Shown: one piece after another, positions 5,421 through 25,670 of the stretch
Layout: the number at the start of each line of letters is the position of its first letter
Position numbering within the stretch: the stretch's first letter is position 1
Assembly (NCBI RefSeq): GCF_026571515.1
Contig: NW_026862321.1
Coordinates: 1-64,000, forward strand
Length of the DNA: 64,000 nucleotides
DNA from: Ruditapes philippinarum
Lineage: Eukaryota
Reading direction: 5' to 3'
The notes under the pieces: model-generated
Seen by the model: only the letters and a program-made list of their open reading frames with translations
What the model was told of the DNA's origin: nothing
Database searches by the model: none
Translations under genes and position numbers: made by a program

Positions 5421-5589
5421 ATATTGTATGGACTATTGTATTTTATCCTGATCAAAATAAGTGGATTTATTTCATCCAAAAACTTTCGATTTTAAGACAC
5501 AAATGCAAAATATTGGAGCCCGTGGTATGACAAAAATAACCTGATAGGAATTTTTATCAGGCAAAACCCACTTTATAACATGTGATTAC

Positions 5590-5720
5590 CTCTTTTGTCA
5601 GTGATTTTATCTTGAACTTTAATGATATATAACTGCATAACTTGCTATATAATAAAGGAGAACTACTTTTGAGAACATACAGGGTTTGTTCTACCATATT
5701 TGGCAAACCTTTGGTCATTT
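5590..5720 (-). CDS. Candidate further coding exon (same or neighbouring gene)
   Basis: tctttttttttaaaag|(x)MTKGLPNMVEQTLYVLKSSSPLLYSKLCSYISLKFKIKSLTKE|gtaatc. 131 bp, phase 1 to 0, compatible with a phase-1 upstream donor. Confidence 0.4.
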
Positions 5721-5825
5721 CTTTTAAAAAAAAAGACTTCAAAAATAAATAAAGAAAAAAAACTTTGACAAAAGTTATCCTCTCTCACTGACCACTCTTA
5801 TACCAGGCAATCACTTAACAGGATG

Positions 5826-6400
5826 TGATAATATACAAATATGGACTTTTTAGCTGTTGAATATTATGTGATATGTACTGGAAAAATTAATATTGACCGA
5901 GGCGATAGCCGAGGTCAATATTAATTTTTCAGTACATATCACATCATATTCAACAGCTAAAAAGTATATATCTGTTTTATTATATGATCTATAAATAGCT
6001 TTTATATTGCTTATCACATCTGCCATTGCATACGACGGAAATCATTGTTTTTCAGCTTGTCTACTGTTCCATAATTTGGCCCTTTCCATTGCATGCTAAT
6101 CCCTGTTTTTCTCTAAAATGAAAAGGGTAACTAAAATAGACGAAATTTGACTCTTATGTACACCCATCATAATAATAACAACAAACTTTTTGGCGTGACA
6201 TCACGTCAAAGTCTCGCGTCTTTTAGGGATTTCAGAAATCTATTTTTAGAAGAACAACCGGTGAATATACTCTGAAAATCTATTTTTAGAAAAAAAACAG
6301 TGAATATACTCTGATATTGACCTGTTATTTTTTTACAAAAAGTTGCTTGTTATCCAATCAGGGAAAGGCATTTCAAAGCTATTTATAGATTATATAATAA
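5826..6400. mobile_element. Non-autonomous element: ~160 bp terminal hairpin plus body bounded by ~23 bp inverted repeats (possibly Crypton-like)
   Basis: Hairpin 5826-5984 with core gacc-GA-ggc-gata-gcc-GA-ggtc. Body IR ttattatatgatctataaatagc (5977) / gctatttatagattatataataa (6378-6400). Internal ~38 bp tandem duplication at 6236-6315. Confidence 0.65.
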
Positions 6401-7101
6401 CGACTTATATCCTTTCAATACATTATTTATATACTCTATATAAATTATTAACTACATGTTGGATCGAATATTCAAATAAATCTTATATGTAATGTATTCA
6501 TATTTGACAGGTCAATAAACTCAGACTATAAAAGTATTTCGACCACGTGATTTGATATGTAAAACACAGAGTGTAATCTTTGATAAAGTATATATAATAT
6601 AAATATTTGACATTCAAAAAAAGTCTGTTTCGGTACAATTTTGATTGAAAATGACTGACAACCATGTTAAAATCAAATTATATTAACATACTGGACCCTA
6701 TGTCAACAGGTTGGCATTTTGTACATTCGATTTCTTAAAACATAAGCTTAATAATGCATTGTTAAATTTTATATCTATGAATTTACTAAATTGTGGTAGA
6801 CTTATACTTGATATATTGGGAGAAAAAAGAACTAAGTCATCAACTCCCAGCATTGAATTGCTATTTACATGGTTAGTTAATTGCTAGGTTAGACTGATTT
6901 ACCATATATACATACTATTAAAGAATGATAAATGATGTGTTTTAAAGTAGGCAAATATTCAATTACCAATTTTTATGGCCAAACACGATCACATATTTTC
7001 GGCCCTTTCCATAAGGACCTCGGACACAATTGAATATTATGTCAGAGGGACATTAAACTGGCTTATTGAATATTTGTCTACTTTAAAACACATCATCTAT
7101 C

Positions 7102-8030
7102 GAGTCACCGTACCTGTGCTCGACCAGTCCATTGCTCGACCAATACTTCTTAATTGAAAAAAACCCTCGGAGTTTGTGTGTGCTATTTATAGCTGACATT
7201 TAACATCTACACCACGTACAAGTTAGAACTTGACAATTTTGCAGACGATAATAAACAGTACAAAAATACATGTCTATAATAAAAGTTGCAGTAAAAAACT
7301 ATTAAAAGGACTGAAATAATGATAATTTAGGGCAAATTGGGAGAATGCTTTGTTAAATGTCCTTTGCTCTTATGTTTTTTTATTGAGTTTCATGGGAAAG
7401 ACCCCCACAAATAATCAAAACCCGGCTTCCCATACAAGGCAATGGCTATGAACATGTAAACAGATATGGCAGCTGTCCGGTTACAAATAGGGAACACACC
7501 ACTAAAAGGGCAGACCAACTGTATATTACATCAAGTGTCACACTTTACTATGTTTGCAGTGATAGAATATGAGAATAAGTAATCTCAAACTCCCCAGTAA
7601 AAAAGCAAAAAGGAAAAAAAAACCTCTTTAAATCACTCAATTTGTCAATGTCTAACATTTCCTTCCTATCATAGTTATCTCATATTTACATCCATACTCA
7701 CTAAAACATAAATGTTCCAAAATAGATTTGAAATAAAATTGTTAAACACAAAAAGTCATATCTGTTTTTTCAAAAATAAAAGTTCTGATAAAAATAAAAC
7801 AACCTGGTCGAGCACTGGTTACGTTGCTTGAAAAATATAGTGGTTTTAGGCCCTATGTACAACTCCTTGGTAAATGGTATCCTAATCTGTATCATTAAAA
7901 CGCTTTTGTTTATAATGAGTTTTGAAGGCTAAGCTTTGTAACAAAAATAAGTTTCCGAGCAATCTTTTTGTTTTGAAAGAGTTTTTATGTGATTTTGTGA
8001 AATACTGGTTGAGCACTGGTCCGGTGACTC
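7102..8030. mobile_element. Non-autonomous TIR DNA transposon (~930 bp)
   Basis: Left gagtcaccgtacctgtgctcgaccagt versus right actggttgagcactggtccggtgactc; extra internal copies of the tgctcgacca motif at ~7132 and ~7805. Confidence 0.7.
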
Positions 8031-9271
8031 TAACATATTTCATGTTTATCCTTCATTATCTGATATTTGACAGTTTTCATGCATAATATTAAATGTAAAA
8101 ATATGAAATGTTAAATAACTTTTTTCACGGCTAATTATTAAACTCAAGCCACCTGCATGTTTGAACTCAAGCTCACTAGACTTTGGTTTTTCAGCGTATA
8201 ACTCAGCTTTCAAATATAAATGAGTGGAAAATATCTAATCAAAACCGTTAATAACAGTGAACTATAATTATACATGTATAACATCATATAATATATATAA
8301 GTCACCAATAATTTGAAATAAAATAAAACAATAAATTGTCGTCTGCTATCACTTCCGTGACAAGATAACATATTGTAAAGACATTTTTTAAAACATTCGA
8401 AATATAGAATAAATACATTTCCAATAAATCAAAATCTTACCATTCTATCACTACTTCTAAAGAATTTGCATCAAAAGCAAAAACAAACAAAAACGAAAAG
8501 TGTTTTACAAAAATGTTCCATCTCTGGTGAATATACCCGGACAACTGAAACAAACATTATATATCTATAAATAGAAATTTATTACTTTTTGACAAGCATA
8601 GCCAACCAGGGGAGGAGCCAGGATTAAAGGTAAGACAGTGCATATTATCACGGGGGAGGAACGGTTACACGAAGGGTGGAGTAATTACAATAACAGTTGT
8701 CACGGAGTTTATGGAACTTTTCATATGTGATCTTCTTCGTTGCCATACCTTATTACCTAATTATAATGGAAAGTTGCAAATGTAATGCCCAGGCTTATAG
8801 ATTACACGATTTTCTAAATGTCACGGCCGGAGTTCTTGCGATAACTCTGAAAATGTCCTAGAGTTCTTATGATAACTTTTGTTACTGCCAGTATGTTTCA
8901 AGATTGTGCAATGTTACGGCACGTTTTAGTTATTTTATTTGTCAATAAGTGTGTAAATCATAATGAAGCGTAAAGTACGTAGAACGCTTATCATTTGCAC
9001 AAGCATTTGGTTATATAATGTTGGTTTTGGTTGAACTTCAGTTCAAGAGATAGGTTTTCTTATCTCCGTTTCTTTTTTTTCAATTTATAGAATTTTTTGC
9101 TAACACATGTTTTGTAGACTATAAAAAAGGCTAAATATAGAAGATTAACTTACAAGATAAAAATATGCTTTGAATTCAATACTGGCAGTTTAAGAGAACA
9201 TTAAGTTACAATATGTTATTGATCTGTCGAAACAAATTGCATGTAAATGGTTTGCAGCAAAATATGAAGTA

Positions 9272-9635
9272 GTACCTGCCTATATACCTACCCACCTGCA
9301 TGCCTACCTACCTGACTTCCTACCTGTATGACTACCTACCTGCATGCCTACCTACCTGACTGCATATCTGCCTGCCTACCTGACTGCACACCTGCCTACC
9401 CACATACCTACCTGCCTGCCTACCTACCTGACTGCCAATCTGCTTGCCTGCCTGCCTACCTATCTAACTACTTGTTTACCTGACTGACTGCCTACCTACC
9501 TGCCTGTCCACCTACCTACCTGCCTGCCTGCCTACCTAACCGCCTGTCTGCCTGTCTGCCTTCCTACCTACCTACCTACCTACGTGCCTTCCTACCTACT
9601 TACCTACCTGACTGCCTATACCTACTTTCCACCTA
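9272..9635. repeat. Compound (CCTA/CCTG)n microsatellite
   Basis: Directly visible tetranucleotide array. Confidence 0.95.
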
Positions 9636-9671
9636 AGCCCCCGTACCGGTAACAAATATGCTCCTTCAGCA

Positions 9672-9900
9672 TAATCTTTATATATTATATACTTAATTCA
9701 AACAAACCGAGAAGGAAGTGACGTTATGTCAGTGAGCGACGCCCGTCATGTCATTGTATGTTGTCGTCTGCATCATTCGTTTATTCGTTATTCACTTAAT
9801 CTTTATATACTTAATTAAAACAAACCAAAAAGGAAGTGACGTTATGTCAGTGAGCGACGCCCGTCATGACGTTGTATGTCGTCTTCCGCGTTATTCGTTA
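9672..9900. repeat. ~119 bp tandem duplication
   Basis: aggaagtgacgttatgtcagtgagcgacgcccgtcatg occurs at ~9712 and ~9831 with shared flanks. Confidence 0.9.
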
Positions 9901-10633
9901 GTGTTAACTCCATTAGGTCGATATGCTTTTTTAACATATTTTTCACAGATTTTCGATTGTTTTGTTTTAATTGCCCGGTCCCGTACAGTGACTGTTTTCG
10001 TGCACTGCAGATATTACATGAGAGTAATTGATAAAAAGCAAGAGTTATATATCACTTTAAGGTGAAAACTGCCTCAAATAAGAAAACAAAAGAAAAAGGC
10101 CGTGTGACCGGCGTGACTGTCTTAAAAACGACTCATTATACAGTTACCTTAGTAACGTAAAACCGGCGCGCGACAAAAAATTGGGTAAGTTCATTTATGT
10201 GATGCATCACAGTATCCTTTAAGCACTACACATAAACGTCAAAATTCAGGGAAACTGTGTTTACGTATTCCTGACGTCACTAGAAAATATGACGTCATTT
10301 GCCCTATTGTTACTTTTCCGTGTGGTCGTCAGAGAGTTGACGTTAAATTGGCATTAGGGTCTAGTATTTTTGTAATCTTTTTTTTAAACCAATAAAACTA
10401 TTAAATGGCGCCGTAACTCTTTATAAGTAGTGTTCATAATTTAGTTTGTTACACAACTGGTACTCTACTTTCCTATGATTATATTTTTCAACACATCAAA
10501 ATACAGCTGAAGGGATGGATGTTCAAAACACTTCATGATCTTCAAAATGCAGTGGTCTGAATCATTTGTACAATTCCAAGTGATCTTTACAGGGTTTAAC
10601 GCGCGCCATTGCAGCTGTGATTGTACCATAATT

Positions 10634-10898
10634 ATAGAGGATACTGAATGAGTGTAAGTTCAATACTGAATTTATTGCACGAGTTAAATAAAATTATATT
10701 ATGCGAGCCTCTGGCGAAAATAAAGACCGTTTAAAGTGAAATAAGTCATTTTTCATTGACGCGCCTATATTATATAAAGCGAACATTTAGCGCGTCTTTA
10801 TGTTTGTATAACGCTAATGACGTCACGTCAATATATATACACGGCCGTGCAATACCATATTTACGGAGTCGCAAAATCGGCACGGGTGTGTGATAAAA
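10634..10898. mobile_element. Truncated hairpin-type element (right hairpin arm deleted)
   Basis: Core atgc-GA-gcc-tct-ggc-GA at ~10701; the same left arm (ttcaatactgaa.ttattg...gagcctct) recurs at ~51974-52029. Confidence 0.45.
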
Positions 10899-10901
10899 TC
10901 T

Positions 10902-11571
10902 TTTAATACACTTGTTACTATATATAGTAACAAAATTGCCTATGATTTCAACTGATTATGAGTGTCACGTGACCTATTATAAGTTTGCGGCCCGGGGCCG
11001 AGAACTAGTTATCAGCCCGCAGAACATGTGCACGTGCACAAACTGAAACAATGACGTCACTTTTAACGTCATCAAACAGTTAACTGTAAAAGTGAAAGTA
11101 GGCTGTCAGCACGAATCGCTTTATTTTTATTATGAGACCTTAAGCGTATTAAGTACAAACACATTTTTGTTAGAATATCTACCTACTATTGAAATTTGAA
11201 GAAATAATACGACAAATTCATTCCGAAAAAAAAAGAAAATAAAACTTGCTTCTTGGTTCTACTGCTTTGAACACACAAACAGAAAACATCTCTGTACTGT
11301 ACAGAACAGTAGAAGAGTAGACAAGAATTTCAACGAAAGAACTTCAAAGTCTATTTGTTTTTAGTATGTTTTTGTTATTTTTTTGTTGTTGTTTTTAAAT
11401 GCTACTATTAGATCTACCAAGTGTATTAAAGACTTTAATACACGTCAGCGTAGGGCCGGAAGGTGATAATCGGCCCTGAATGAATAATGGCCCTCGGGCT
11501 AAAGCCCTCGGGTCCATTATTCATTTTGCGGGCCGATTATCACCTTCCGGCCCTCTCCTGCCGTGTATTAA
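10902..11571. mobile_element. Non-autonomous element: IR-bounded body plus 137 bp terminal hairpin (possibly Crypton-like)
   Basis: Body IR tttaatacacttg (10902) / caagtgtattaaa (11418-11430). Hairpin 11435-11571 begins ttaatacacg and ends cgtgtattaa; core ccc-TC-gggc-taaa-gccc-TC-ggg. Confidence 0.7.
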
Positions 11572-11716
11572 CCTCTTATTATTGCTTGTAAAGTGGCATT
11601 TCCTTTTTATGTCATAATTTGTTTTACTGTCAGAAGAGGAAAGATTGATGCAAAGTATCTACATGTGCACAAATATATTGGACAACCCTCGTATATTTTA
11701 GACAGTTTATATTTTA

Positions 11717-11889
11717 NNNNNNNNNNNNNNNNNNNNNNNNNNNNNNNNNNNNNNNNNNNNNNNNNNNNNNNNNNNNNNNNNNNNNNNNNNNNNNNNNNNN
11801 NNNNNNNNNNNNNNNNNNNNNNNNNNNNNNNNNNNNNNNNNNNNNNNNNNNNNNNNNNNNNNNNNNNNNNNNNNNNNNNNNNNNNNNNN
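11717..11889. other. Assembly gap (173 N)
   Basis: Run of n. Confidence 1.
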
Positions 11890-12544
11890 AATTGCCATCT
11901 AATAGTCGATATTTTAAAAAATATAACTAATTCACCTCTACTTGACAACAAAAAGTTACTTTTACACATTATGGATCTCCGTAAGAAAAAAATATTTTAT
12001 ATTGATGTATACATCTTTTAAACCCCAACTATTTCTCGTTTAACAATTTTTTAGCATGACATATTTTCATTTATTGGAAGCTCATTTTATTCTAGCAGAG
12101 ATGCTGCTGAATTTTCCTGTAATTTATTGATACAAGACATTAGTAAACTTGTATATCAAGTTACATTCTATTAAAATAATTTCATGTCTTCAGTTATAAT
12201 GTTTCGGCAGGACCTTTGAAGAAATCGTATGTACATTAAAAAACAAAAACCACCGCCTAGCGGGAATCACACTCGAAATTTTCTTACTCATCGGAGGACA
12301 AAGTAAGGAATACTCCAACAAAACATTAACAACAACATATTGTTACGGACTGGAACGGGAACGGAAAACAGAGAACATGCATGGTCTTTATAGACAAATT
12401 TAGGTATTTATCGGAAATCACATTTTTTAATGAAGGTTTCTCAAAAAGTGGGTGGTCTTAAATCGGCGCTTGTTTCTTACAAAGGTTTGAATGTATGACA
12501 ATTATGGAAAGCTACATGCCTAGCGTATTTAAGTAAAATCTTAC

Positions 12545-12619
12545 TTGTTTTCATCCAGTGATAACGTGTCCAATCAAAAAACCTCTGAAAAATGTTTCCC
12601 TTCTTCTGCCTTGTTTCAT
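12545..12619 (-). CDS. Candidate coding exon 5 of the same gene
   Basis: ttatccttcag|(D)ETRQKKGNIFQRFFDWTRYHWMKT A|gtaaga. 75 bp, phase 1-1, open in the phase required by exon 4. Lies 8.7 kb downstream, so linkage is inferred. Confidence 0.5.
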
Positions 12620-12686
12620 CTGAAGGATAATTGAAACATTAACAATTTAATCAAATCTGTTATAATAATTATGATACATACTTTCC

Positions 12687-12800
12687 ATGATGATAACAGT
12701 AACCATAAAAGTGTGATGTATGGTAACAGTTATCATTTAAGTGTCCTGTATGATAACAGTTACCATTAATTTGTCCTGTATGACAACAGTTACCAATAAG
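12687..12800. repeat. 30 bp minisatellite, about 4 copies
   Basis: gtatgataacagttacca-like unit repeated at a 30 bp period. Confidence 0.85.
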
Positions 12801-13546
12801 GTATTCCGTTTTGTCTCGTTACCGCCCAATGGGCGGGGTCCCCTCGTTACAGATATTCCTATTTTAACCGCAACATATGACATATATTATTAATATATTA
12901 TTCATCTGTTGACCTGTACTTATTTCGAAAATTGACAATTTAGCAATTCAACACATTGATTAGTTGGCGCACTGCATTACCAGTTTATATAACGTGCGAA
13001 ACTACTAATGTCTGATGTAAAATAAATAAATAATAAATACATTTGTAAATAACTAAATAAAGACAATTTATGGAACTTGTGTACACGTAAAATGAAACGT
13101 CACTCTCACATTAGACAAACAGTACTTGTCAAATATTGTTCATGTACATAAGACCTGATATATAAACGACTCAATCATCATCTATAATTGTATAATTTCA
13201 TATTTGGATATTGAAGGAAATATATACACCAGTATTGTCCTGCACTTTATTTACTTTCGTAAAGATCATTGGATAAACACAGGTATCTAACGAATATATT
13301 GCTTCACACGTCGGCGCAGTGTGGTGTGTTGGTAGATCTGAAGGTCTCTGGTTTTTTTCCATGATATGAAGTTTCTTTTCCCCCTTTTTTTAAGGCAGGT
13401 GTGTGTGTGGGGGGGTGATGGCTTTACTTGCAAAAATTAATTTGAAAGCGTTTTAGTACAAGTGGTTAAAAGATTCCTTTTAAGTTTTTTTTATTCACAA
13501 TTATATTTGTTTCATTTCATCATATCATTTTTACTCAAAATTAAAG

Positions 13547-14790
13547 CGCGTTACAGTTATTTGGTCAATTATGCCGATTGCCATCTAAATATCTTGCTAA
13601 ACAGATATTTGTTAATAGATTGATTAGATATGTGAGTATGGATAGACAGAAACATGGATTTATTCCAGACATATATAGATTACTGCAGAAGTATGATCTG
13701 TTGTACGTCATTTATACTTTTATTGATACCGGTGTGTTTCCATCTAAATTAAAATGGAAGAAGATTTTACAGATGAAGGTAATCAATGAATCAACAAAAG
13801 AGTTATTCTTAGAAACGTTAACGCCACAAGTGCCAGCATTAACATTTCTACTTCACCCTTACAAGATTTCCCCTCTGTGGGTTATTATTCGACAAAATCC
13901 GGGTCTAAAATGGGTTGCTGAAATACTTGCCAAGGCAGTTGGACACGGGATGTGTTATTCATATGTGCGTCGTTGTAGCATTTGCAATCTGCTTACAAAT
14001 GACATTACAGAACACCTTATGTGTTTTTGTCACAGGAAAGAGACTGAAAGACGTGCCTTCTGGAACGCTATTATATCAAATTTAGGTTTTGACCAATACA
14101 GCACATTTATTTGCCATAACTACAGATATCAATGTGAAATGTTTTTGCATATCGCATGTAAAATTATTGATAATGTACTTGTCAACTTTCATATTGCTAT
14201 CGCGCTTGCAAAACTTTTATCTTCACGTTAAAAAAAAATAAAAAGAAGCAGGCAATATAATCGCTTTATAGTATATGTAGTATTTTGCTCAGACATAAAC
14301 TGTATAGTTATTTTTTATTTACCTGCATCGTTTTTTTTTCTATGTTTTTTACTTGTTTAAATAATTAAGATCATTGATTTGTTGAGGAATAATGCTTATG
14401 ACATCCGTCTATTGATAGTCATTTATAAAGCATGTACACAAAGACGGTACCTTCACTTTCTCTTAAATTTTCGTTTTTCGATTAAGATTCAGTTATTGGT
14501 ACGGAACTAAGTAACTTTGTTTATTTTTGTCACTGAGGATGAATATAGCAATGTTCATTTTTAAAACGAATGATATAAATCATAGTCTTAACTTTCGCTT
14601 TCGTTTAAGACAACAATTTACACCCATAAGTCATACGTTTACAATTGTAAAAGAATTTCATATTATTGTATCCTTTATATTACAATGTTATGCATTTGTA
14701 TATAATTCTCTTCTGTTGTATGTACATATATATACTTTGTAAATATGTTACGCTCCCAATTTTGGGGGAAAATAAAATATAATATAGATA
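13547..14790 (+). mobile_element. 5'-truncated non-LTR retrotransposon (C-terminal part of ORF2 with CCHC zinc knuckle, plus 3' UTR)
   Basis: Open frame LQLFGQLCRLPSKYLAKQIF...GFIPDIYRLLQKYDL...G.FPSK..WKK...CSICNLLTNDITEHLMCFC to a stop at 14231. The 3' end has a short hairpin (ctcccaattttggggga), AATAAA and short AT-rich repeats. Confidence 0.8.
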
Positions 14791-14822
14791 AATCGTCGCC
14801 CCGTTATTGCGCGGAGTGAGAT

Positions 14823-14863
<41 letters not shown>

Positions 14864-15075
14864 CGCGCAGCGAAAACAAGCTCATAAGCAGGGCGCGAAA
14901 CGAGGGAGTGCGCTTATTAGCTAATTAGTTTAATAAATGACACGCGTCGCCCCACGCCCCTGCTAATTAGCGCGTTTTTGCGCCGCGCCCTGGCCATTAT
15001 AACTTATTTATTTTCGGCTTATCGCTTGGCAGGGTCACGGGGCGAAATCACGAATGGCACAAATCAGCCACCATA
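14791..15075. mobile_element. MITE fragment, family ending ...ggcacaaatcagccaccata
   Basis: Same terminus at 50470-50491 and, diverged, at ~59360-59378; GC-rich cgcgccc repeats; 38-nt A run inside. Confidence 0.65.
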
Positions 15076-15157
15076 AATATGACAGGTGGCACTAAATTGT
15101 AACCCTTATTATCGTAAATCAATAGCATGAAATGTCACATGTGCACACATAGATGAA

Positions 15158-15266
15158 TATGATCATGATGATGATGTCGCTGCTGCTCCAGCTGATTATG
15201 ATTATGATGGATGATAATGGTGATGATGATGATGATGACGATGTATATGATGACGTTGATGATGAC
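15158..15266. repeat. (GAT)n microsatellite
   Basis: Directly visible. Confidence 0.9.
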
Positions 15267-15503
15267 CAGGTAAAGGGAAAGCATGACAGGGCCTTCACTG
15301 ACCAGAATTTGGTGTAGCCAAATACACTTCAGTTCTTTTTTTGTTATTTAGCATCCTGTACAACCAGAGAAAATTTTGTAAGCAACTTGTAAACATTGTT
15401 GCCAATAAACAATATATAGCAGATGACAGATTGAGCCCCGTATGGTTATGAAAATGATGTTGAGTTTCAGAACAGTTTTCGTACATTAGCATTTATCAGG
15501 AGT

Positions 15504-16696
15504 GCAATCACCGAAAGCTACTAACACGCTGGCGTGATATCATAAAACTAACATTAAGCGTTAAAATTGTGACATTTAACTGTCCTGAATTTTGTGTGAC
15601 ATTAAGCGTTGAATGTTCAATATTCACCGTCAGGGCAATTGTGACATTGTTAGCCGTCCTTGCGACATTTAGCAGCAATGCGACATTAAACTTTGACAGA
15701 GCATATTTCAAATTCTGAAACATAAATTTTAATGGTCATAATATTTTTGTAGTACCGGACAGTAAAGTTTACTTGTGCGTAAAGTGTAATAATAAAACTG
15801 ATTGGGGTATTTAGCGTTAATTTTGCGACATTAAGGTAAGATCCCCCTTATGCATTACCTCCGCCTTGAAAAGTATTCAAACAGGCCAGAATTACTGTCA
15901 AATGCATTGAAACTAAGGGGCATGGGTTCAAACCCCAGAATGAGCAACATTTATTTCTTTCAATTTTTTTCTTTTAACATTATTCATGAATCTCTCAGAT
16001 CCCTTTTGGAAAGAAAAATCGTTTGATTTTTATTTTATGATTATTGTTGGTATTTTTTAGCTAAATAATGCCAAATTTAATAGCAAATACGATACCTGAC
16101 ATTTTCAAAGTCTAATAAAGTAAAAGGAAAATACTTGTTAAAAGTATTTCATATTTTGCAAGGTCAACCAAAATACATTTAAGAAAACTTAGGCTAACTT
16201 TGAAAACTGCCTGTGATTGTTGTAAATTATAGGTATATTTAGAATAAAAAGTGAGTGGGGCATGGTAACATTTTTATGTAAAAACAATCATTTCACTTGC
16301 GTGAATTGTAACCTGGATATCATTATTTGTTTTTTCACAGTGGTCAATAGGGAAACGTTTTTCATAATGATGATATATTGAAGATTGTTTAGAGTTTCCT
16401 CATTTCTAAAAAGGAGCCCTTCTAAAAGCAAAGTTTTATAACTCATAAACTACAGGTAAACTTTGTTATTATGTTTCATAGTGGTATCCTTTGAGGCATA
16501 TAACTGTCTTATTTTGTTATTTTATAGGTCCTTATAGTGCCCATCAGCGGTGTCTTACCTTTACAGTCCAGACTATTTGTGTGAAAGTGCGACACCTTCG
16601 GCCAGGGTTATTGCGACATTTAGCGTTTATTGCGTCATTTAGCGTCAACCTTGCAACGTTTAAATTCAAAGGCGACGCTACCTTTTAACGGTGCTT
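15504..16696. mobile_element. Non-autonomous DNA element with subterminal gcgacatt(a/t)agcgtt arrays at both ends
   Basis: Motif repeated at 15550-15840 and 16590-16670; imperfect termini gcaatcaccgaaag / cttttaacggtgc. Confidence 0.55.
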
Positions 16697-18689
16697 CAAC
16701 ATCATCCAATCTTAAAGGTACACGCAACTCGATAACGTTTACAACAACTGTTTGAAAATAAAGAACTAAAATGATACACCGTATATCTTAAAAATAAAAC
16801 TTTATGAATTGTTAGCTTTTGTGTTTCATCAAAGATATGTTTGTTGGAATAAAATATAAGGAGATGCTCAGCGCAACGACTCTGAAATAGTAATACTTGG
16901 TCAAAGGACAATTCTTGAAGAAAAATTGAAAAATATCATTATGAACTTCCAACCCAACAATTTAAATGTTTTCCGTTACAATAATAGAGATAAAAATGAA
17001 AATAGAAATACATCAACAACGCGCTTTATTTTTCTCAGTGATGGATAAAGAGGATATTTAATTGTTTTGCATGTATAAAATTGATATTTTTCTATCTTAT
17101 ATGCCGCGTAACGTCGCGCATTCTCCTATATGACTTCTGTAATGATATCTGTTTAACTCTGATACATTAACCTTGACCTTTATATGTTAGCACAATATTA
17201 TTCAATGAATGCCTGAATGGGCAGCTCATATATATAACAGGCGATTCCCGCCATTTACCAGTTCTTAGATTAAACTAGATTAATTCACATCTATGTTCTT
17301 CTTATTAATTTACTTCAGAACTCCGTATAATTACAAGCTGTATGTATACGTACACAAAATAGAAAATATTACAACGTCATCACGTCATAACTACACGTCA
17401 TCAATTTTGAAATAAAGTTCTGTTAATTTTTTTCTAATTTTGTAACACTTTTAACATGATATAAGATGAAATCGACTTTCTTTTCCTAAAGAAGGAAAAT
17501 TTGCGTATGACTGCATTTCTTATTGCCTGTTATTCCATTTAGTTATCCACATTCAGATAATTATAGTCCAGCTACAGCGAAAATTATATTTTATAAATTT
17601 CCCTTGTGCTTTATTAGAATATAATCATCTGGTATATTACAGTAAAACACTGGAAAGCATGACATAAAGTAATAAAGAAAAACAACATAGAATAGGGGAT
17701 GTAACTGCAAACATGTTTATCAGATTAATTGAAAGTGTGTCTATAATCTTATAGCTTCCTACACAAAACAAAAAATGCAAAAAGCATCTTAAATATCTTA
17801 ATGAGATACTTGGACGAAGTAAACCTGGTTAACTTGCATTTGTTCGTTCTTAGTTTTCCATGAAAAACATATAGAAATATGGGGCCATTTTATTGGTCCG
17901 AGGCTTTTGTATGGGGTATGAAGGAAATTGAATAAAAATCATATAACATAGTTTAAAACATATTCCAAATAAAAATTACTGCAGTTTACATTGTTTGCAA
18001 CTAATTACAAGTCTTCATACTGGTTTTTGCCAGGAACGACATGAAGGGAATTGATTGTTGCACATTTGGTTAAAGCGAGAAAATTGGTTGCAAACTTGAC
18101 AAAATGGCTACCGAGTACTCAATATTTACAACACTCGCATGTATTTCTTTTGTAAGTGGGTTTGTATGTGGTTTTGAAAAAAAAAAATATGCCTTTTCCT
18201 TAAAGCAATGTTCCTAATACAATCGGTTTAAGGTTTCAGCTTCCTAGCTTCTTATTTGACAAAGTTATTAAAGAAATAAACTAGTCATGTACATATTTAC
18301 GATTTACAGGTGACAATTCTGGTCGGTTTTCTACTCGTTTTCCACATCTTCAAGGTTAAAAATTCACCAAACAAGAGAAAATCTGTTTCTGGATTGGGTA
18401 AACAGACACTTTTGCAAATAATGATAATGACACACGCTGCCTCTGTTCAATCCCATCACAACCACTTTAGTGAAAATAAATCATTTGACTCCTACTGATT
18501 TTTGGCTAAATTGTAGAGTTATTTATAAACTGAAAGTACAATTTAACAGTTTTATATATTTAACTTAAGATAAAACACACAAAAACATAATTCATATTTT
18601 CATTGGTAACATTGTGTCCATTTTCTAAAGTTGGTTGAATTCAGTGGTGATTTTGTGATTTCTTACTGTAGTAAGATTTTTATTTTAAT

Positions 18690-19770
18690 TCTGATGAAAT
18701 AGCTGATACATTTTTCTTCAACATTATAATGGATTGCCAGCTATCAAAATAATTATGTATTGCAAAATTAAGAAATATCAGTACGTATTGCAAATTAGGC
18801 AAGTAAAAAAAGCTTGTTTTTAAAAATTCGACCATGGTCGAACATCCGAAAACTTGAAAAATAATCATTGAATATTTAGAGCGAAAGCTAAAAGATCAAA
18901 TTCACCAATCTAAGAGCAAGTAATGGAAGTCATATGTTTCATATATAAATGCAAAAATCCCTATAAGGACAGTATGAAATGCAGTTAGACAGAGTAGCGG
19001 TAAATAAAATAATCCCACTGTTCAATTTAAATATAATAACGATCAATATGCTAAGAAACAAAAGGTAATTCAGGAAACAATGGCAGAAACATTAACACAC
19101 AAAAACAAATTTTTCTTCAAAAAAATATTCAAATTAGTTTCTACAGAGTTAAGTTTCTAAAGTTATAGGAAAAGTTCAGAACAAGTAGATTTGACTTCAG
19201 CAAATGACAAAATTCACAATTTTGTCTTTTCTATCGAAGATTTAGTTGATTCTATCAAGAAAACAGCAAGCCCAGATGAAATTTACTATCGATTTCTTAA
19301 ACATCATCCATATCAATCTCTGGAATTACTTCTTAAGATATTTAACAACATTAACTGGTGGATATCCTAATAAATGTAGTTCTAAAGTAGCTGCGGTTAT
19401 CCCAATTCCTAAACCTGAAAGGGATAGCACTGACCCTACAACTTACCTTCAAATGTCACTTACAAGCTACTTACGCAGAACATATGATAGACTGGTAAAA
19501 ATTTCCCTGGTTTGGTATTTAGAAGTTAAAGGAACAACATAAAACAACTACGACAATTAGTAATTTCCATGTTCACCTCGAATCTTTCGTAAGAGAAGCT
19601 TTACTTGACTTCAATTTTATTCAATCTTAAAAAAAAAAGTTTTGATACAGCATAGAAATATGGTATTCCTAAAGATCAAATGTATGCAGGATTAAATAGT
19701 AGACTTCCAATCTTAATTTCTAGCTTTCTTGCCAACATAAACTTTAAAGTAAGACTTGGTTCATCTTCTA
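18690..19770 (+). mobile_element. Decayed LINE ORF2 fragment (I/Nimb/Jockey group RT)
   Basis: RAKAKR..HQSK..WKSYVS.IN, VIPIPKPERDSTDPTTY..MSLTS.L...DRLV...LVWYLE, then F.L.K.FDT..KYGI.KD..AGL.SRLP..ISSFL.N..FKVRLGS; multiple stops and frameshifts. Confidence 0.85.
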
Positions 19771-20469
19771 AAAAGCTTTCTGTCCAATATGCAGCTAGTG
19801 TATCATCAAACAGTAATAGTAAAAGTCCTGCAACACAGACGCAGCTCTTTTAAAACTGGTTACTTAGTAATATATCTTGTCATACAGAAGTACATTGTCC
19901 CCATTATTAAGCATGCGAAGAAGGAGTACAATATCTTTGACAGTTTTCTATTATTATCCATTTTTACAAATATGTTAAGTAAACAAGGGACCTAACTCTA
20001 AATAATTCTTTCAGGTAAATGCCTTAACTCTCGCTCATTATAATTAAGTTTTTCAACATTCCTATCGATACCTTTAGAGCTTTCAAATCATTCTACTTAT
20101 ATGCAAAGAATTGACAAAAAGGCACAACTTCAAATATAGCAGTCAGATTGATGGCCTTTGTATTATACCTAAGACTCGTCATGATAAGCAAGTATTCCAA
20201 TATTTATGTTGGGTAGTGAGCAACATTAAAGTTTTGGCACGAAGATGCAAGGGTTAGAGTTAACCCTAACCTGGCAGTAATCATAACATACAAGTTTAAA
20301 ACAACTGACATAGCAAGACCTCTAGTTTTTCTGTATGTTTAACAAACATATATGTGATTAATATTGTTCATCAACTGAAGCTAATTTAACAATAAGTATG
20401 TTCTATGTAACATGTATGATACAAAATAAACAAGAGGACCCTGTCTTGTATCTTTGGCTGCCTTCCATA

Positions 20470-20575
20470 AGCTAACTAGATAAGATACTCACATGAAATA
20501 ATACAAAGTCTCTGTTGGGATTTAAGCTCAAAAGGATGACGCCATCAGAGGCAAGTCAGTTAAAGTCAGCAACAA
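20470..20575 (-). mobile_element. Degraded SINE-like fragment, homologous to 45280-45370
   Basis: Shares actagataagat.c.cacatgaaa.aat.caa..ctctg..ggga.t.aa with the 45280 copy. Confidence 0.4.
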
Positions 20576-21342
20576 CTGTCCCAGAGTAACATTGTTGAAA
20601 ATAAATACACAAAACCAAAGCCATTAATAAACATATGTTCGAATGTTTATGCCCCATTATTATCCAGTGTCATATGCACTTTGATAATAAAATTAGAAAT
20701 TAACAAGAGTCAGACTTATTGGTAAATTAGATTCAGCTTGTAAAAAATATAAATAACATAATTTTTATTATGCTTATAATTCAAACAGATAAAACAGAAA
20801 TCTTGCTGGAAATTGTTTGCTTATGCTTGTCAGTAATGATTGCTGCCTTGTTGTCTTGGCATCTCCGTGCAAAACGTGTAGCCCATAACCCAAGATTAAT
20901 CATGATATTGCTTTTGGTCCACCCGTGGTCAAGGTCACTATTTATTACGAAAAAAAAGAGTAAAATAGTTTCGGACATTAACTAGAAGTAGGAATGAAAT
21001 ATTGAGACCAAACTTGGTATATAGCAAGCTTATAATCAAGACCTCAATTGGGATTGCTTTTGAAACCCCTTTGTAAATGTCACTGTTGCTAAAACAAATA
21101 GGACGGACCCATACACAGGCGATTGAAATAGGAAAATGGTTTATTTCCTTTGTTATTATTTTTGTTTAAAAGAGTGACAAAGGCTTTTTACTCTATTGTT
21201 ATATAACGAACTATAATTTTTTCTCATTTTTTCTGTTTAGAGTTTGATGACACCTCGCCTGTTTTCGCTATTGCGGAAGCACACACGGACGGAGACCATT
21301 TCTAATATCCGCTTTGCCTTTGGCGAGGAGATATAAGCTTAC

Positions 21343-21412
21343 CTGATTTAGCTTTTTCATATTCTAGTTCTCTTTGTTTAGAAGAATCTTTTTCCTTGAG
21401 TCTTTGTTTCTC
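21343..21412 (-). CDS. Coding exon 4 (23 aa + 1 nt), charged coiled-coil continuation
   Basis: ttttttgttgtag|EKQRLKEKDSSKQRELEYEKAKS G|gtaagc. 70 bp, phase 0 to 1, strong splice sites, composition continues exon 3. Confidence 0.8.
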
Positions 21413-21859
21413 CTACAACAAAAAATAATGATACAAATATTGTATTTTATTCGGTAACTTTCATAAATGTGTTTTATATAAAAAAATATAGGTTTTTTTA
21501 TTCTGTCTAACACACAATGTCCATATTTATCTCAAAAACGTCAAATGTAGTACTGTGACAATTTAGTTTCTTTCATAGAAAATCAACTTTATTGCTAGGG
21601 ACAAATAATTTATTCATGAAGAAAAGTTTCAGACGTTTCTGGTGCAATTGCACATAATTTTATAAAAGATTATTTAAACTTTCTTAAAGATTTGATCTGA
21701 CAGCTTAAATGTTTGAAATAGGATCATTTTGCAAGGTTGTTTACAATTTATCGTATGGTTTATGCCGAAATGTTATTGATATGAACTGTAAATTACAGAT
21801 CTAAGAGAAACCAAAACTTTCCATCAAGTTTATTTTGTCATAAGTATTGTTTTGTCCAA

Positions 21860-22570
21860 GTATGATAATTTTGACCCACGAGCTAAAATTTGAACAATCT
21901 TGGAAGAGGTCTATTACACAATGTTTCATGCAAAATATCTAACATCTAGCCTTTGTCAATTCATAGAAGATGATTTTTATGGTTTATGATAAAATGATAT
22001 TATATACCAAAACCTCCAAGCCTTGACTCTTCACACAAGAAGATTTTTAACTTTTTTTGTTATAATTATGTACATTGTAAAAGTCAAATACCCTCGGGAC
22101 GATGCCAATATTGACCCCAGGACTATAATTTGAAAAATCTTGGTCACAATGTTTCATGCTAAATATCAAATATCTAGCCTTTGTAAAATCAGAGAACCTA
22201 TGATCCCTGGGGAGGGGCCAATTTTGACACTAGAGGCAAAATTTTAAAAACTTTGTAGAGGACCATAGATGATATCATGTACCAAATATCATGGCAATAA
22301 GCCCAGCATCTTTTAGTTTTCGTTCTATATGTTCATAATGAAAATCATTCTCCCCCAGGGCGGGGCCATTTTTACCCCAGGGTTATTATTTGAGCAACAT
22401 TCGCCGATTTTGACATTGGACTGGTGGTTTTCAACAAGGAGATTTTTTAAATTCACTTTATAATCTGTAACACATGCACACACGCACACACGAACACACA
22501 CGCACGTACGCACACCGGCCAACAAGCTGACTCCTATATAAGCCCTTAAACTAAATTCATGGGGGTATAA
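21860..22570. mobile_element. Modular repeat element (internal tandem units + CACA/CACG microsatellite + short terminal IR), HINE/Pearl-like; intronic
   Basis: Repeated ttgacccc.gg...aatttgaa.aatcttgg...atgcaaaatatc..atctagcct units, then a cacacacgcacg tract and a tataagccc...gggggtataa end. Confidence 0.65.
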
Positions 22571-22862
22571 TGCTGATAAATGACCACCTAGTGAGCATTA
22601 TTTTTAGGCCAAAATACAACATCAGTTTATAAGCCGATGGTTCAAGAAATTATTGATGATGCATAGGAGAGAGATGGCCATCACATCGCAAGTTGTGCTT
22701 AGGTAAGACAAAAATGTGGATAACAACAGACAAAGGGCATCGCGAAATCAAAAAAAAGTTTGCTTACCTTATTGTATGCAAGCTTATTAAACATGGCTGT
22801 ATGTACATGTACTGGTATATCAATCGGAAACAAATTTATAAGTAATAAAAACAAAGTTGCAC

Positions 22863-23039
22863 CTCTTTTTCTTGGGTCATCTGTAACTCAAGGTCAGATA
22901 ATTTTTTTCTAAGCTCGTCATATTCCTCTTTAGTTGCAGAATTTTCTGTTGATTTCAAAACTTTTGTCATTTCGTCTTTGATTTGCATCAGAACTTCTTC
23001 AAAGCCGTCAGTAGTAATTATGAAATCCTTCTTTTTCAG
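22863..23039 (-). CDS. Coding exon 3 (59 aa), helical/coiled-coil region
   Basis: tttttcatcag|LKKKDFIITTDGFEEVLMQIKDEMTKVLKSTENSATKEEYDELRKKLSDLELQMTQEKE|gtgcaa. 177 bp, phase 0-0, inside track ORF 22836..23090. Confidence 0.85.
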
Positions 23040-23510
23040 CTGATGAAAAATAACAATTGAGGTATAATTGCAGCTCTTTGATTCATGCAATTTACCCTTC
23101 GATAAAACATAATTTTTAAATATAAGGTCAGACTTTATTTCTGAATTACCACAATTGTTCTTTTTATATCTCGTTATTTTGTGAGGACTTTAAAATCCGC
23201 TTATATAACATGATGTGTAGTATAGATATCTAATAGTCAGACTATACTTCTTACTTCACTTTTTATCTTAATCATAACTCACAGTGAAGGATACGTTGTT
23301 TTTGAGTATATTAACTTTTTATGGGCATGTATATTTTATTTCATTAATTAAATTTATTTAAAGCATTCGTTATTTAAATTTGACTATAATGAAATCATTT
23401 TTAACACTTTGTCAACTACCAAAAGTATGTCTTGATTTAAAGATTTCTAAGCATAACAAAACTTTTTCAGAATTTCAAACTAATAAATGTAATTCATTAT
23501 TTAGGCTTAC

Positions 23511-23669
23511 ATCTTGTAGTTTCCTGACAGCTCGTTGAGCAGCCTGATGGTGTATAAGTTCCTTTCCATCTTGAAGAACTGATAGCATATCATCAATATA
23601 GGAATTTGCTTCCATTTCCTCTAATTCCATACTACTTGAGTGAAAAACGCAATTTCTATACTGTCGTAC
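23511..23669 (-). CDS. Coding exon 2 (53 aa) carrying the HEPN-type RxxxxH motif RNCVFH
   Basis: Manual translation: ttccattcaatag|VRQYRNCVFHSSSMELEEMEANSYIDDMLSVLQDGKELIHHQAAQRAVRKLQD|gtaagc. 159 bp, phase 0-0, in frame with exon 1; matches the recalled CXorf38 segment V.K.RNEIMHSSEM. Not in the ORF track. Confidence 0.9.
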
Positions 23670-24384
23670 CTATTGAATGGAAAACAAAACTAAGTCAAAC
23701 ATACATACTTATACTGTGTTCAGCAATGAAACCAAACAAGACTCTTCAGTTAAGCATTAAAACTGTTAAGCGAGATACGCAATTGCATCTTCTCGGTCCT
23801 TTCCGTTTAACTTCGGATAAGATCCTCGAGCACAAAAGTAAGAATGGACAGAACGGATACGGTGAACAGAATTTATCCAGAAGTTAAACCCGCCTGGTGC
23901 ACAAAGTGACATGCTGATCAACATTTCTGTAAAGTTTGGTGACTCTAACTCAAACACTATAACAGCTATTTGTGACACAAAATGGTAAGGACCCCCACCT
24001 CAAGAATGACGGCATACGAATATAACCGTACCAAACACTTGCAATGGTCCAGCAAACAAAGTGAAGTTTAATGTTGGCTTAAACAATTTACATCGAATCA
24101 CAATAAAATGTGTTGCATAACAAGTTTTTAATCATTTTTATTGTGGCAGATTGTTTATCTCGCCATTTGGCCTCATAGCAATATGGACATAACACCAACT
24201 TATTGCAGTAATGAGTTAAGTCCATTTTAAATTCAATACAAGAGTATATAGCTTTACTGTAAGGTTTAGTATATATTCAGCATCAAAATGAAAGTTTTTA
24301 TTGTCATCTGAGTGCAGTATCGGTTTAATTCGTATAATAATTTCACAAATTGTAATTAAACACAGAGTAAACAAAAAGATTAAC

Positions 24385-24954
24385 CTTTGCGAAAAGATTG
24401 TTTGGTCCTGTTACATTGCATCCAATATGATTATGAAAATATTTGTTATTTATGATAACATGTAGTAACCCCGAGCAGTCAACGTCGACTGCTGATGTCT
24501 TGTCCTTGTACCCAGGAGCATTTATAAAACATTTACATATGCTCCAAGGATCATTTGTCCAATCACGGGCATCGCTGTTTCTCCAAAAAGGTGCCGGTGG
24601 TATTGATGCATGATTCTGTACAATGCTATCATAGATTGCGCCACATACGTTGTTTGGGCAGGGTTTCTTATTATTTGGAAAGCAACAGTTACATTTATCT
24701 TGCTTGTATGGACACACTCCTTTTGAGACTCGGACATGGTCTGGCTGGAGAGTTGTTATCTGACAGATGCCACATGGTACATTTGGTTTAGGAGTCTTTG
24801 TTCCTATAATTTGGTTGATAATATCTTTGTGCTGCTGTTTTCCTATGTCATCACAAAATGGTGCTAGTCCTTCTTTTAGATAACCTAAGCCTAGGCCCGC
24901 CTTGACCCATTGTCGGTATTTGTTGTTCTTTAATTGTATCTCGTGCGCCATCAT
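24385..24954 (-). CDS. Coding exon 1 (190 aa) of a CXorf38/DUF4559-like, HEPN-motif protein
   Basis: ORF MMAHEIQLKNNKYRQWVKAGLGLGYLKEGLAPFCD...FWRNSDARDWTNDPWSICKCFINAPGYKDKTSAVDVDCSGLLHVIINNKYF parallels CXorf38-family motifs as I recall them (Y.NWVKAG, W.N....W..D.WEVAK.F, D...LL..I.). Acceptor ttttcattctag lies just upstream of the ATG (exon starts 24959); phase-0 donor GCA AAG|gttaat at 24385. Confidence 0.9.
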
Positions 24955-25670
24955 GATATCTAGAATGAAAATTTTTAGCTACAAGGAAAATCAATTTAAA
25001 CTACGACTGAAAATAAACAGTTCTATGCCCAAAGTTTATCTGAGTTAATGGACCGTGACCTTTGACTAACAATGAAGACATGGTCACTATCACAAGCTGG
25101 TCATATTGGCCCTAGATCCCTCCCTGAGATTAATAGTTAGAAATGGGCATCATTTCTAAATACAGAATTAAATAACTAGATCACAATGAGACATGTCTGA
25201 CAGTGCTTCAGACAAGATGCGTACCTTTCCAAAATAAATATAGATCATAAACAGCTTTTCAATTATTTGAATAAAACATTCATTTTATTATCACTTTCAT
25301 TGCATGCTTACGCAAACCCAACGGGAAATTTTTGGTTTAAACCTTGCGAATTTGCACCAAAATCAATTAGATAATTTCTATATCTCCGCAGGTGCTGTCT
25401 GTTTGGTAATACATTTCAACGGTGTCTGGTAAAAAGTTGATACAGAGGTATTATCATAATTAACCCTGACAGTTTATTGAACGAAAATTTTACACAGAGC
25501 GGATGTCTAAAATTAAGTTCATCTATTCGCCACAAAACAAACTTTAAGTTATGTTGCAAAAATGATCAACAACGGGAATAACTCTATCTATTTGACTTGA
25601 TTGGTATGGATTTGATGAACGATAAAGTTCCCTTGGTTAGAAGAATTTTTAGACTTGGTACGAATTCAAT

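What the first reader, a model, noticed from the sequence alone, without database searches (positions are those of the whole stretch)
21343..24954. Spliced CXorf38/DUF4559-like gene with an intact HEPN RNase motif fused to a coiled coil: candidate invertebrate immune ribonuclease
Seen: four exons join in frame (190+53+59+23 aa), and exon 2, absent from the ORF track, carries R-N-C-V-F-H. Established: RxxxxH is the catalytic signature of dimerisation-activated HEPN RNases (RNase L and IRE1 KEN domains, Las1, Cas13, bacterial toxins). Recalled rather than searched: CXorf38 has the equivalent RNEIMH. Inference: the coiled coil directly after the domain could drive dimerisation, making this an uncharacterised, probably lineage-expanded RNase effector.
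Basis: partly seen in the sequence, partly recalled or inferred. Interest (0 to 1): 0.75.

Follow-up and report, generated by a model that had tools for sequence, protein, structure and literature searches.

The report
Clam immune receptor with RNase head
These four exons encode a domain predicted to cut RNA; they are very likely only the front of a longer clam immune-receptor (NLR) gene cut off by the end of the contig, and the layout is already on record in clams, although its RNA-cutting activity is untested and the heads appear to be swapped between receptors.

Summary
The four exons are real and join into 325 open codons with an intact RNCVFH motif. The domain is DUF4559/CXorf38, a Swt1-like HEPN. 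The gene is not finished: exon 4 ends in a phase-1 donor. The closest paralog (87% identical, ungapped) continues into a NACHT-LRR exon. The window's intron 4 is collinear with three paralogous introns up to about 370 bp before their NACHT exon, and the contig ends there. So this is very likely the RNase head of an NLR, switched by NACHT oligomerisation rather than by the coiled coil alone. The genome holds at least 150 copies of exon 1, and dN/dS is 0.17-0.29. The layout is in print: CXorf38-NACHT was predicted in 2013, and 45 of 99 NLRs of another clam carry DUF4559. The scan also noted other HEPN-NTPase genes before. Not found in my searches: heads and NACHT exons have discordant trees (AU p=1.7e-54). 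The head is a phase 1-1 cassette found before NACHT or Roc-COR exons. One NACHT type carries either intact or degenerate heads. RNase activity, dimerisation and the exon junctions in RNA were not shown.

The parts
24385..24959 (-). Exon 1: N-terminal HEPN helix, Cys-rich (predicted zinc-binding) insertion and the helix with conserved D159. ATG at 24954; the ATG shared by all paralogs is at 24951.
   Evidence: Pfam DUF4559 E 1.4e-10. An AG acceptor lies 8 nt before the shared ATG in 12 of 12 copies examined, which gives a phase-1 5' boundary.
24643..24774 (-). Cys-rich insertion, residues 61-104 (C61, C64, H73, C81, C88, C90, C99, C104)
   Evidence: These cysteines are kept in 86-87 of 87 close homologs; C61, C64, C99 and C104 in 145-151 of 145-151 distant rows. 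'Zn ribbon inserted into HEPN' is the published description of CXorf38. Metal binding is inferred.
24478..24480 (-). D159, likely equivalent of human CXorf38 D134 (proposed His-Asp dyad)
   Evidence: D in 85 of 87 close and 144 of 151 distant rows. Equivalence is inferred from the Pfam profile position and the preprint; no direct alignment to the human protein was made.
23511..23669 (-). Exon 2: HEPN catalytic-type motif and following helices
   Evidence: DUF4559 profile positions 152-198, E 0.014, continuing exon 1 (48-141); splice sites
23640..23657 (-). R195-N-C-V-F-H200 motif (R-phi-xxx-H)
   Evidence: R 86 of 87, N 85 of 87, H 86 of 87
22863..23039 (-). Exon 3: helical linker and start of the coiled coil
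   Evidence: 80% identical to P0001 243-301; heptad score; helices in the AlphaFold model of paralog P0073
21343..21412 (-). Exon 4: end of the coiled coil, ending in a phase-1 GT donor
   Evidence: Donor in the same place in 8 of 8 copies examined. The NACHT exons of 7 of 7 paralog loci examined begin with a matching phase-1 acceptor.
1..21342 (-). Intron 4 (inferred), about 21.7 kb, running off the start of the contig. Contains no NACHT exon and no second HEPN head.
   Evidence: tblastn of 72, later 242, proteins finds nothing outside 21000-25100. The window starts at base 1 of contig G000:C10808.
8..17048 (-). Blocks collinear with the intron just before the NACHT-LRR exon of paralogs. The last block ends 369-377 bp before that exon in C7104, C4801 and C5313.
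292..4617 (.). About 4.3 kb present here and absent from the three paralogs, inside the error-rich contig end (likely an inserted element)
   Evidence: Flanks map to adjacent paralog positions with a 7-bp overlap; homopolymer inflation at 1-5500

Best explanation
The four exons encode a CXorf38/DUF4559 domain with an intact HEPN-type motif plus a coiled coil, and are very likely the effector head of a clam NLR (HEPN - coiled coil - NACHT - LRR-like) whose single large NACHT exon would begin about 370 bp beyond the contig end; the receptor is predicted to cut RNA once NACHT oligomerisation pairs the heads. Steps: (1) exon structure, motif and family: shown. (2) Splicing on to a NACHT-LRR exon: inferred from paralogs and collinear intron DNA. 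(3) Resting state with the active site partly blocked by downstream helices: inferred from a model of human CXorf38. (4) Ligand sensing by the C-terminal repeats, nucleotide exchange and oligomerisation: inferred from the general NLR/STAND mechanism (established knowledge). (5) Two RNxxxH motifs form one composite site that cuts host or pathogen RNA, ending in antiviral arrest or cell death: inferred from other HEPN RNases, untested in this family. The head is a phase 1-1 cassette that has been exchanged between different NACHT exons in this genome; tree discordance and shared intron DNA are shown, and intronic recombination is the inferred cause.
For: 45 of 72 longer homologs carry Pfam NACHT, 14 of the top 18; all 72 carry DUF4559. 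The closest, P0001 (1128 aa; DUF4559 E 4.8e-18, NACHT E 1.5e-7), is 87% identical without gaps, and its gene on G000:C3769 has the same four exons followed by one 805-aa exon. Of 12 close paralog loci examined, 7 had enough contig downstream, and all 7 have a same-strand NTPase exon after exon 4: NACHT at 1.7, 3.9, 4.9, 32, 38 and 54 kb, Roc-COR at 41 kb. The other 5 run into a contig end 12-25 kb after exon 4. Window 17048 to 8 is collinear with the pre-NACHT intron of C7104, C4801 and C5313, stopping 369-377 bp short of the exon. Window 8-291 scores 178 bits against C5313, against at most 60 in 30 shuffles. The 7 best non-self hits of window 7000-7600 all lie 1.3-5.6 kb upstream of a same-strand NACHT exon. 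dN/dS on exons 1-2 is 0.17-0.29 against 6 paralogs. Pfam HEPN_Swt1 hits 23 of 70 family members at E up to 0.05, best 1.5e-4. The AlphaFold model of the domain in paralog P0087 has pLDDT 95.5, and the Swt1 C-terminal domain aligns over 116 of its 136 residues. Published assignment of CXorf38 to HEPN, with NACHT fusions. On the NACHT tree the window's head clade needs 7 changes and is rejected as a clade, AU p=1.7e-54.
Against: The NACHT exon itself is not in the contig, so it was not seen. The nearest relatives' NACHT exons are often damaged: frameshifts in C5313, a 1.5 kb interruption in C4801, intact in C7104. The stretches used for collinearity contain dispersed repeats: 40 of 40 scored candidates matched the last 280 bp, and about 31 of 39 hits of window 7000-7600 are 76-79% repeat copies with no NACHT match. 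C8738 shares the intron down to window 8031 and then leads to Roc-COR. Intron read-through would give a 339-aa short form, and such models are annotated for paralogs (P0002, P0073, P0015). Structural matches to HEPN are only Z 4.8-5.4, below unrelated helical bundles at up to Z 7.6, and HEPN_Swt1 stays under its curated cut-off. The first residue of the motif is G in 28 of 135 distant rows, so the fold persists without the catalytic Arg. No spliced RNA read was seen at this locus. Long-intron joins in paralogs are gene models, not transcripts I saw.
Confidence: 0.6

Rival explanations
1. NLR head without catalytic output: the HEPN domain serves as an RNA-binding or protein-recruiting adaptor (like DEATH/CARD heads), and the motif is kept for binding or structure.
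For: 43 of 133 distant rows lack the R...H pair, 18 of them in NACHT proteins. The same NACHT exon type carries a degenerate G-for-R head on C7104 and C8738. No experimental RNase result for CXorf38 appeared in my searches.
Against: R, N, H and D are near-invariant in this subfamily under purifying selection. The 2013 analysis classes CXorf38 as active, and a residue-function model ranks D134 first and marks RNEIMH.
Confidence: 0.18
2. One reading: a stand-alone HEPN plus coiled-coil RNase (339 aa by read-through into intron 4, or because the downstream NACHT exon is broken), dimerised by the coiled coil or recruited to NLR oligomers in trans.
For: Read-through gives a stop 12 codons after exon 4. 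Several annotated paralog models end this way. Vertebrate CXorf38 is not reported with NACHT. Related NACHT exons are often broken.
Against: All 5 apparently solo loci examined lie 12-25 kb from a contig end, and all 7 with more sequence have an NTPase exon. The phase-1 donor is conserved in 8 of 8 copies. The window ends at the pre-NACHT intron. The monomer model folds the coiled coil back as a hairpin at pLDDT 54-79.
Confidence: 0.15
3. A recently disabled copy: an intact-looking head attached to a broken or unreachable NACHT exon, one of many dying duplicates in a birth-and-death family.
For: Close to no RNA depth on the exons in 4 runs, of which only 4-12% was read. A 4.3 kb insertion lies near the 3' end of the intron. 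Many NACHT copies have short open frames.
Against: No stop or frameshift in 325 codons, intact splice sites, dN/dS 0.17-0.29. Pairwise dN/dS cannot exclude a very recent loss.
Confidence: 0.07

Closest known systems
DUF4559-NACHT NLRs of the clam Corbicula fluminea (45 of 99 NLRP-like genes; PMC8298618, section read)
   Same: Same domain pair, same lineage-specific expansion in a clam.
   Different: That paper lists the domain without calling it HEPN or an RNase; the section read says nothing on motif status or head exchange. Table S19 was not seen.
CXorf38 family of Swt1-like HEPN domains (Anantharaman et al. 2013, PMC3710099, passages; TAMALE preprint 10.64898/2026.05.28.728550, passages)
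   Same: Zn ribbon inserted in HEPN, R-N-x-x-x-H motif, conserved Asp upstream; NACHT and DEATH fusions reported in cephalochordates and cnidarians; predicted immune RNase.
   Different: Vertebrate members are reported with dsRBD, not NACHT. Here the family is expanded to at least 150 copies and joined to several NACHT types and to Roc-COR.
DZIP3/hRUL138-like HEPN-NACHT proteins of pearl oyster (more than 50; PMC9646362, passages) and cnidarians (PMC8260672, passages)
   Same: HEPN head on NACHT-repeat receptors, large expansions, Rx4-6H kept.
   Different: A different HEPN family (PF18738). No PF18738 hit for the close paralogs scanned.
RNase L / IRE1 KEN domains and Las1 (recalled; named as HEPN)
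   Same: Dimerisation-dependent composite HEPN site is the working analogy.
   Different: Their switch is a (pseudo)kinase or partner kinase; here it would be a STAND NTPase.

Membership tests
CXorf38 / DUF4559 (PF15112) | Pfam score above the curated cut-off | tested here: met
   Exon 1 alone 41.7 bits against 27; exon 2 continues the profile
CXorf38 / DUF4559 (PF15112) | Cys-rich Zn-ribbon insertion inside the HEPN | tested here: met
   Seven conserved Cys and one His in residues 61-104; metal binding itself not tested
HEPN RNase superfamily | R-phi-xxx-H motif, conserved | tested here: met
   R195-N196-H200; both R and H in 85 of 87 close homologs and 90 of 133 distant rows
HEPN RNase superfamily | HEPN helical fold | tested here: inconclusive
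   Model of paralog P0087, pLDDT 95.5. Swt1 C-terminal domain Z 5.4, rmsd 3.3, 116 aligned; AF_0298 HEPN Z 5.3, rmsd 3.2, 98 aligned; sacsin HEPN Z 4.8, rmsd 4.2, 101 aligned. Unrelated bundles reach Z 7.6. Pfam HEPN_Swt1 below cut-off in 23 of 70.
HEPN RNase superfamily | Two motifs form a composite active site in a dimer | not tested
Modelled for truncated human CXorf38 in a preprint.
HEPN RNase superfamily | Metal-independent RNA cleavage | not testable with these tools
   Needs a bench assay
NLR (NACHT-type STAND receptor) | NACHT domain in the same polypeptide | tested here: inconclusive
   Not in the contig. Present in the closest paralog and expected about 370 bp past the contig end.
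NLR (NACHT-type STAND receptor) | C-terminal LRR or other repeat sensor | tested here: inconclusive
   LRR_14 E 0.059 in P0003, E 2.7e-7 in the distant P0070, none in P0001
NLR (NACHT-type STAND receptor) | Ligand-induced oligomerisation activates the head | not testable with these tools
   Inferred from the general STAND mechanism
DZIP3/hRUL138-like HEPN (PF18738) | Pfam PF18738 match | tested here: not met
   No hit for the window exons at E up to 1, for P0001, P0003, P0004, P0070 and P0073 at E up to 0.5, or for P0087 at 0.05. The ESM Atlas lists look-alike clusters where 11-38% of members carry it.

The most novel reading that the evidence does not exclude
Clams run a mix-and-match family of hundreds of NLRs that execute directly by RNase: a phase 1-1 HEPN cassette is swapped by intronic recombination among NACHT-LRR and Roc-COR sensor exons, and the same sensor type is fielded with either a catalytic head or a pseudo-RNase head, giving killer and regulator (or decoy) versions that co-assemble.
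Probability: 0.25. Interest if true: 0.78.

Novelty: new member of a known kind. Interest (0 to 1): 0.42.

Why it matters
The best-studied animal NLRs signal through death-fold adaptors (established knowledge). A head that itself cuts RNA would make these clam receptors work like bacterial STAND-nuclease defence proteins or RNase L, and would give a test case for the enzymatic activity of human CXorf38, for which my searches found no assay. The layout was predicted in 2013 and counted in another clam in 2021, so this gene alone is not a surprise. What the session adds is DNA-level evidence for exchange of heads between sensors and for catalytic versus degenerate heads on one sensor type. It also adds a practical warning: many annotated solo 'CXorf38 homolog' models in this fragmented genome are likely NLRs cut by contig ends.

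Tried and rejected
RNA evidence: no RNA holder was listed for the stretch. Four raw RNA runs of the same species label were dominated by repeat reads, and no exon joint appeared among the 15 joints shown. No second lay was obtained, so what follows exon 4 in transcripts stays open. The complex predictor was not available, so there is no verdict on dimerisation. Foldseek against the PDB gave no match at E up to 0.001 for either model. The first wide VIA search was filled by the coiled-coil hairpin. No solved relative by sequence. A homopolymer-compressed search of the noisy contig end gave mostly noise; plain lenient BLAST with a shuffle control was used instead. I looked for a garbled NACHT exon inside window 1-5500: the flanks map upstream of the exon, so I rejected this. 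I looked among 20 pre-NACHT regions for a contig that continues the window's end and found none. No alternative phase-1 exon of 55 or more codons turned up on the minus strand in 5800-21300. The first NACHT tree had gappy rows; it was rebuilt around Walker B with 25 of 26 rows (P0032 dropped, no Walker B match). No upstream coding exon was found. The DZIP3-type HEPN label was rejected. Paper searches (listings, plus passages of seven papers) showed no assay of CXorf38-family RNase activity and no report of head exchange in clam NLRs. The library lacks most subscription journals, and no supplements were read.
Full report
Observation. The four minus-strand exons are at 24954-24385, 23669-23511, 23039-22863 and 21412-21343, with AG/GT boundaries, and join to 325 codons without a stop. 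RNCVFH is residues 195-200. Exon 1 scores 41.7 bits on Pfam DUF4559 (cut-off 27), and exon 2 continues the profile. The nearest named proteins come from Ruditapes philippinarum and Mercenaria; P0001, named as R. philippinarum by its source, matches G000:C3769 at 96-100% over all exon hits, so the genome is that clam or a very close relative. The join points are supported by ungapped alignment to annotated paralogs (87% to P0001), not by RNA reads.

The gene is unfinished. Exon 4 is 70 nt and ends in a phase-1 donor, conserved in 8 of 8 copies examined. 45 of 72 longer homologs carry NACHT. In P0001 the same four exons are followed by one 805-aa NACHT-LRR-like exon, and 7 of 7 NACHT exons examined start with a phase-1 acceptor. 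The window begins at base 1 of its contig and holds no NACHT. I fetched the downstream DNA of 12 close paralogs. Seven had enough contig, and all seven have a same-strand NTPase exon: NACHT at 1.7, 3.9, 4.9, 32, 38 and 54 kb, Roc-COR at 41 kb.

Where the missing exon should be. Window 17048 to 8 aligns in order to the intron upstream of the NACHT exon on C7104, C4801 and C5313 (67-95% in polished sequence, 65-81% in the error-rich end). The last block ends 369, 375 and 377 bp before those exons. The 8-291 block scores 178 bits against at most 60 in 30 shuffles. That block is a repeat, but its two closest other copies also lie about 370 bp before a NACHT exon. The seven best non-self hits of window 7000-7600 all lie 1.3-5.6 kb before a same-strand NACHT exon; the remaining hits are mostly weaker repeat copies. 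I put the chance that this copy is laid out as an NLR gene at about 0.85. Whether its NACHT exon is intact is unknown: of the three nearest, one is frameshifted, one interrupted and one intact.

The head. R195, N196 and H200 are kept in 86, 85 and 86 of 87 close homologs, D159 in 85, and seven cysteines of a 45-residue insertion in 86-87. Among distant representatives (best 150 of 795 hits), 90 of 133 rows covering the motif keep R and H, and 65 of 150 carry a NACHT-like region by a local profile. dN/dS against six paralogs is 0.17-0.29. Pfam HEPN_Swt1 hits 23 of 70 members weakly. A confident model of the domain in paralog P0087 (pLDDT 95.5) retrieves the Swt1 C-terminal domain, AF_0298 HEPN and sacsin HEPN, but only at Z 4.8-5.4, among unrelated bundles. 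The fold test is therefore consistent but inconclusive. Anantharaman et al. (PMC3710099, passages) place CXorf38 in the Swt1-like HEPN group, with a Zn ribbon insert and NACHT and DEATH fusions, and call it active. A 2026 preprint (passages) gives human 162-RNEIMH and D134, and models the downstream helices as blocking the site until removed. A 2025 paper on CXorf38 has no mention of HEPN or nuclease in its main text.

Expansion and exchange. The genome search returned its maximum of 150 scored matches both for exon 1 (474 candidates) and for one NACHT exon type (480 candidates); some may be alleles. On the head tree, 26 Ruditapes NLRs fall into two fully supported clades (14 and 12 rows). On the NACHT tree of 25 of them the label needs 7 changes, no fewer than shuffled labels (118 of 500 as low), and the window's clade is rejected (AU p=1.7e-54). 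At DNA level, C7104 shares the window's pre-NACHT intron but carries a head only 32% identical, with Gly in place of the catalytic Arg; a second gene on C8738 is similar. 28 of 135 distant rows have this Gly. An acceptor 8 nt before the shared ATG in 12 of 12 copies makes the four-exon head a phase 1-1 cassette, the symmetric kind favoured in exon shuffling (established knowledge). Misassembly or misjoined gene models could add to the discordance. Domain shuffling in NLRs as such is known (listings; not read).

Mechanism, committed. Resting monomer with an occluded HEPN site; ligand sensing by the C-terminal repeats; NACHT oligomerisation; the coiled-coil linker lets heads pair; a composite RNxxxH site cuts RNA. 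Only the anatomy is shown; every functional step is inferred. Confidence 0.6. Rivals: non-catalytic adaptor head 0.18, stand-alone short RNase 0.15, dying copy 0.07.

Known or new. DUF4559-NACHT genes are 45 of 99 NLRs in Corbicula (PMC8298618, section read). DZIP3-type HEPN-NACHT expansions are described in pearl oyster and cnidarians (passages). HEPN and STAND domains occur in oyster TRADD-N proteins (PMC8195603, passages). Earlier notes of this scan record HEPN-NTPase genes in other genomes and one in this genome; they did not change my reading. Supplements that could bear on novelty (Corbicula Table S19, Additional file 1 of the 2013 paper, the preprint's supplement) were not seen. Verdict: a real, intact-looking new member of a known but untested kind; interest 0.42, carried by the untested RNase output and the head-swapping pattern.

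Noticed in passing
G000:C7104:20589-22828 and G000:C8738:111246-114397: Divergent DUF4559 heads (about 32% identical to the window's) with Gly in place of the catalytic Arg, upstream of the same NACHT exon type; candidate pseudo-RNase NLRs.
   Followed up: partly
G000:C8738:28242-32985 and 74087 onward: A near copy of the P0002 head is followed 41 kb later by an 837-codon Roc-COR open frame instead of NACHT; P0031 and P0049 also combine DUF4559 with Roc.
   Followed up: partly
window 1-5500: Homopolymer-inflated, apparently unpolished sequence at the contig start; any ORF reading there is unreliable.
   Followed up: yes
window 292-4617: About 4.3 kb absent from three paralogs, with a 7-bp overlap of the flanks, which suggests an inserted element; not identified.
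   Followed up: partly
window 13545-14231 (+): 228-codon open frame inside intron 4 on the opposite strand; no Pfam hit at E up to 1. It resembles the 3' end of a LINE ORF2 (recalled, not tested).
   Followed up: no
window 22050-22400 and 10630-10900: High-copy repeats that attract most RNA reads laid on the region.
   Followed up: no
proteins P0110, P0114, P0124, P0128, P0147, P0160, P0164: Distant relatives put the same head on nSTAND3-ankyrin, Death, Roc, kinase, immunoglobulin, B-box and SF1-helicase proteins.
   Followed up: no
proteins P0017, P0018, P0019: Close paralogs with long Pro/Thr-rich N-terminal extensions joined at the head's 5' boundary.
   Followed up: no
window 25000-64000: No open frame over 126 codons and no match to the stored proteins; many short tandem repeats.
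   Followed up: partly
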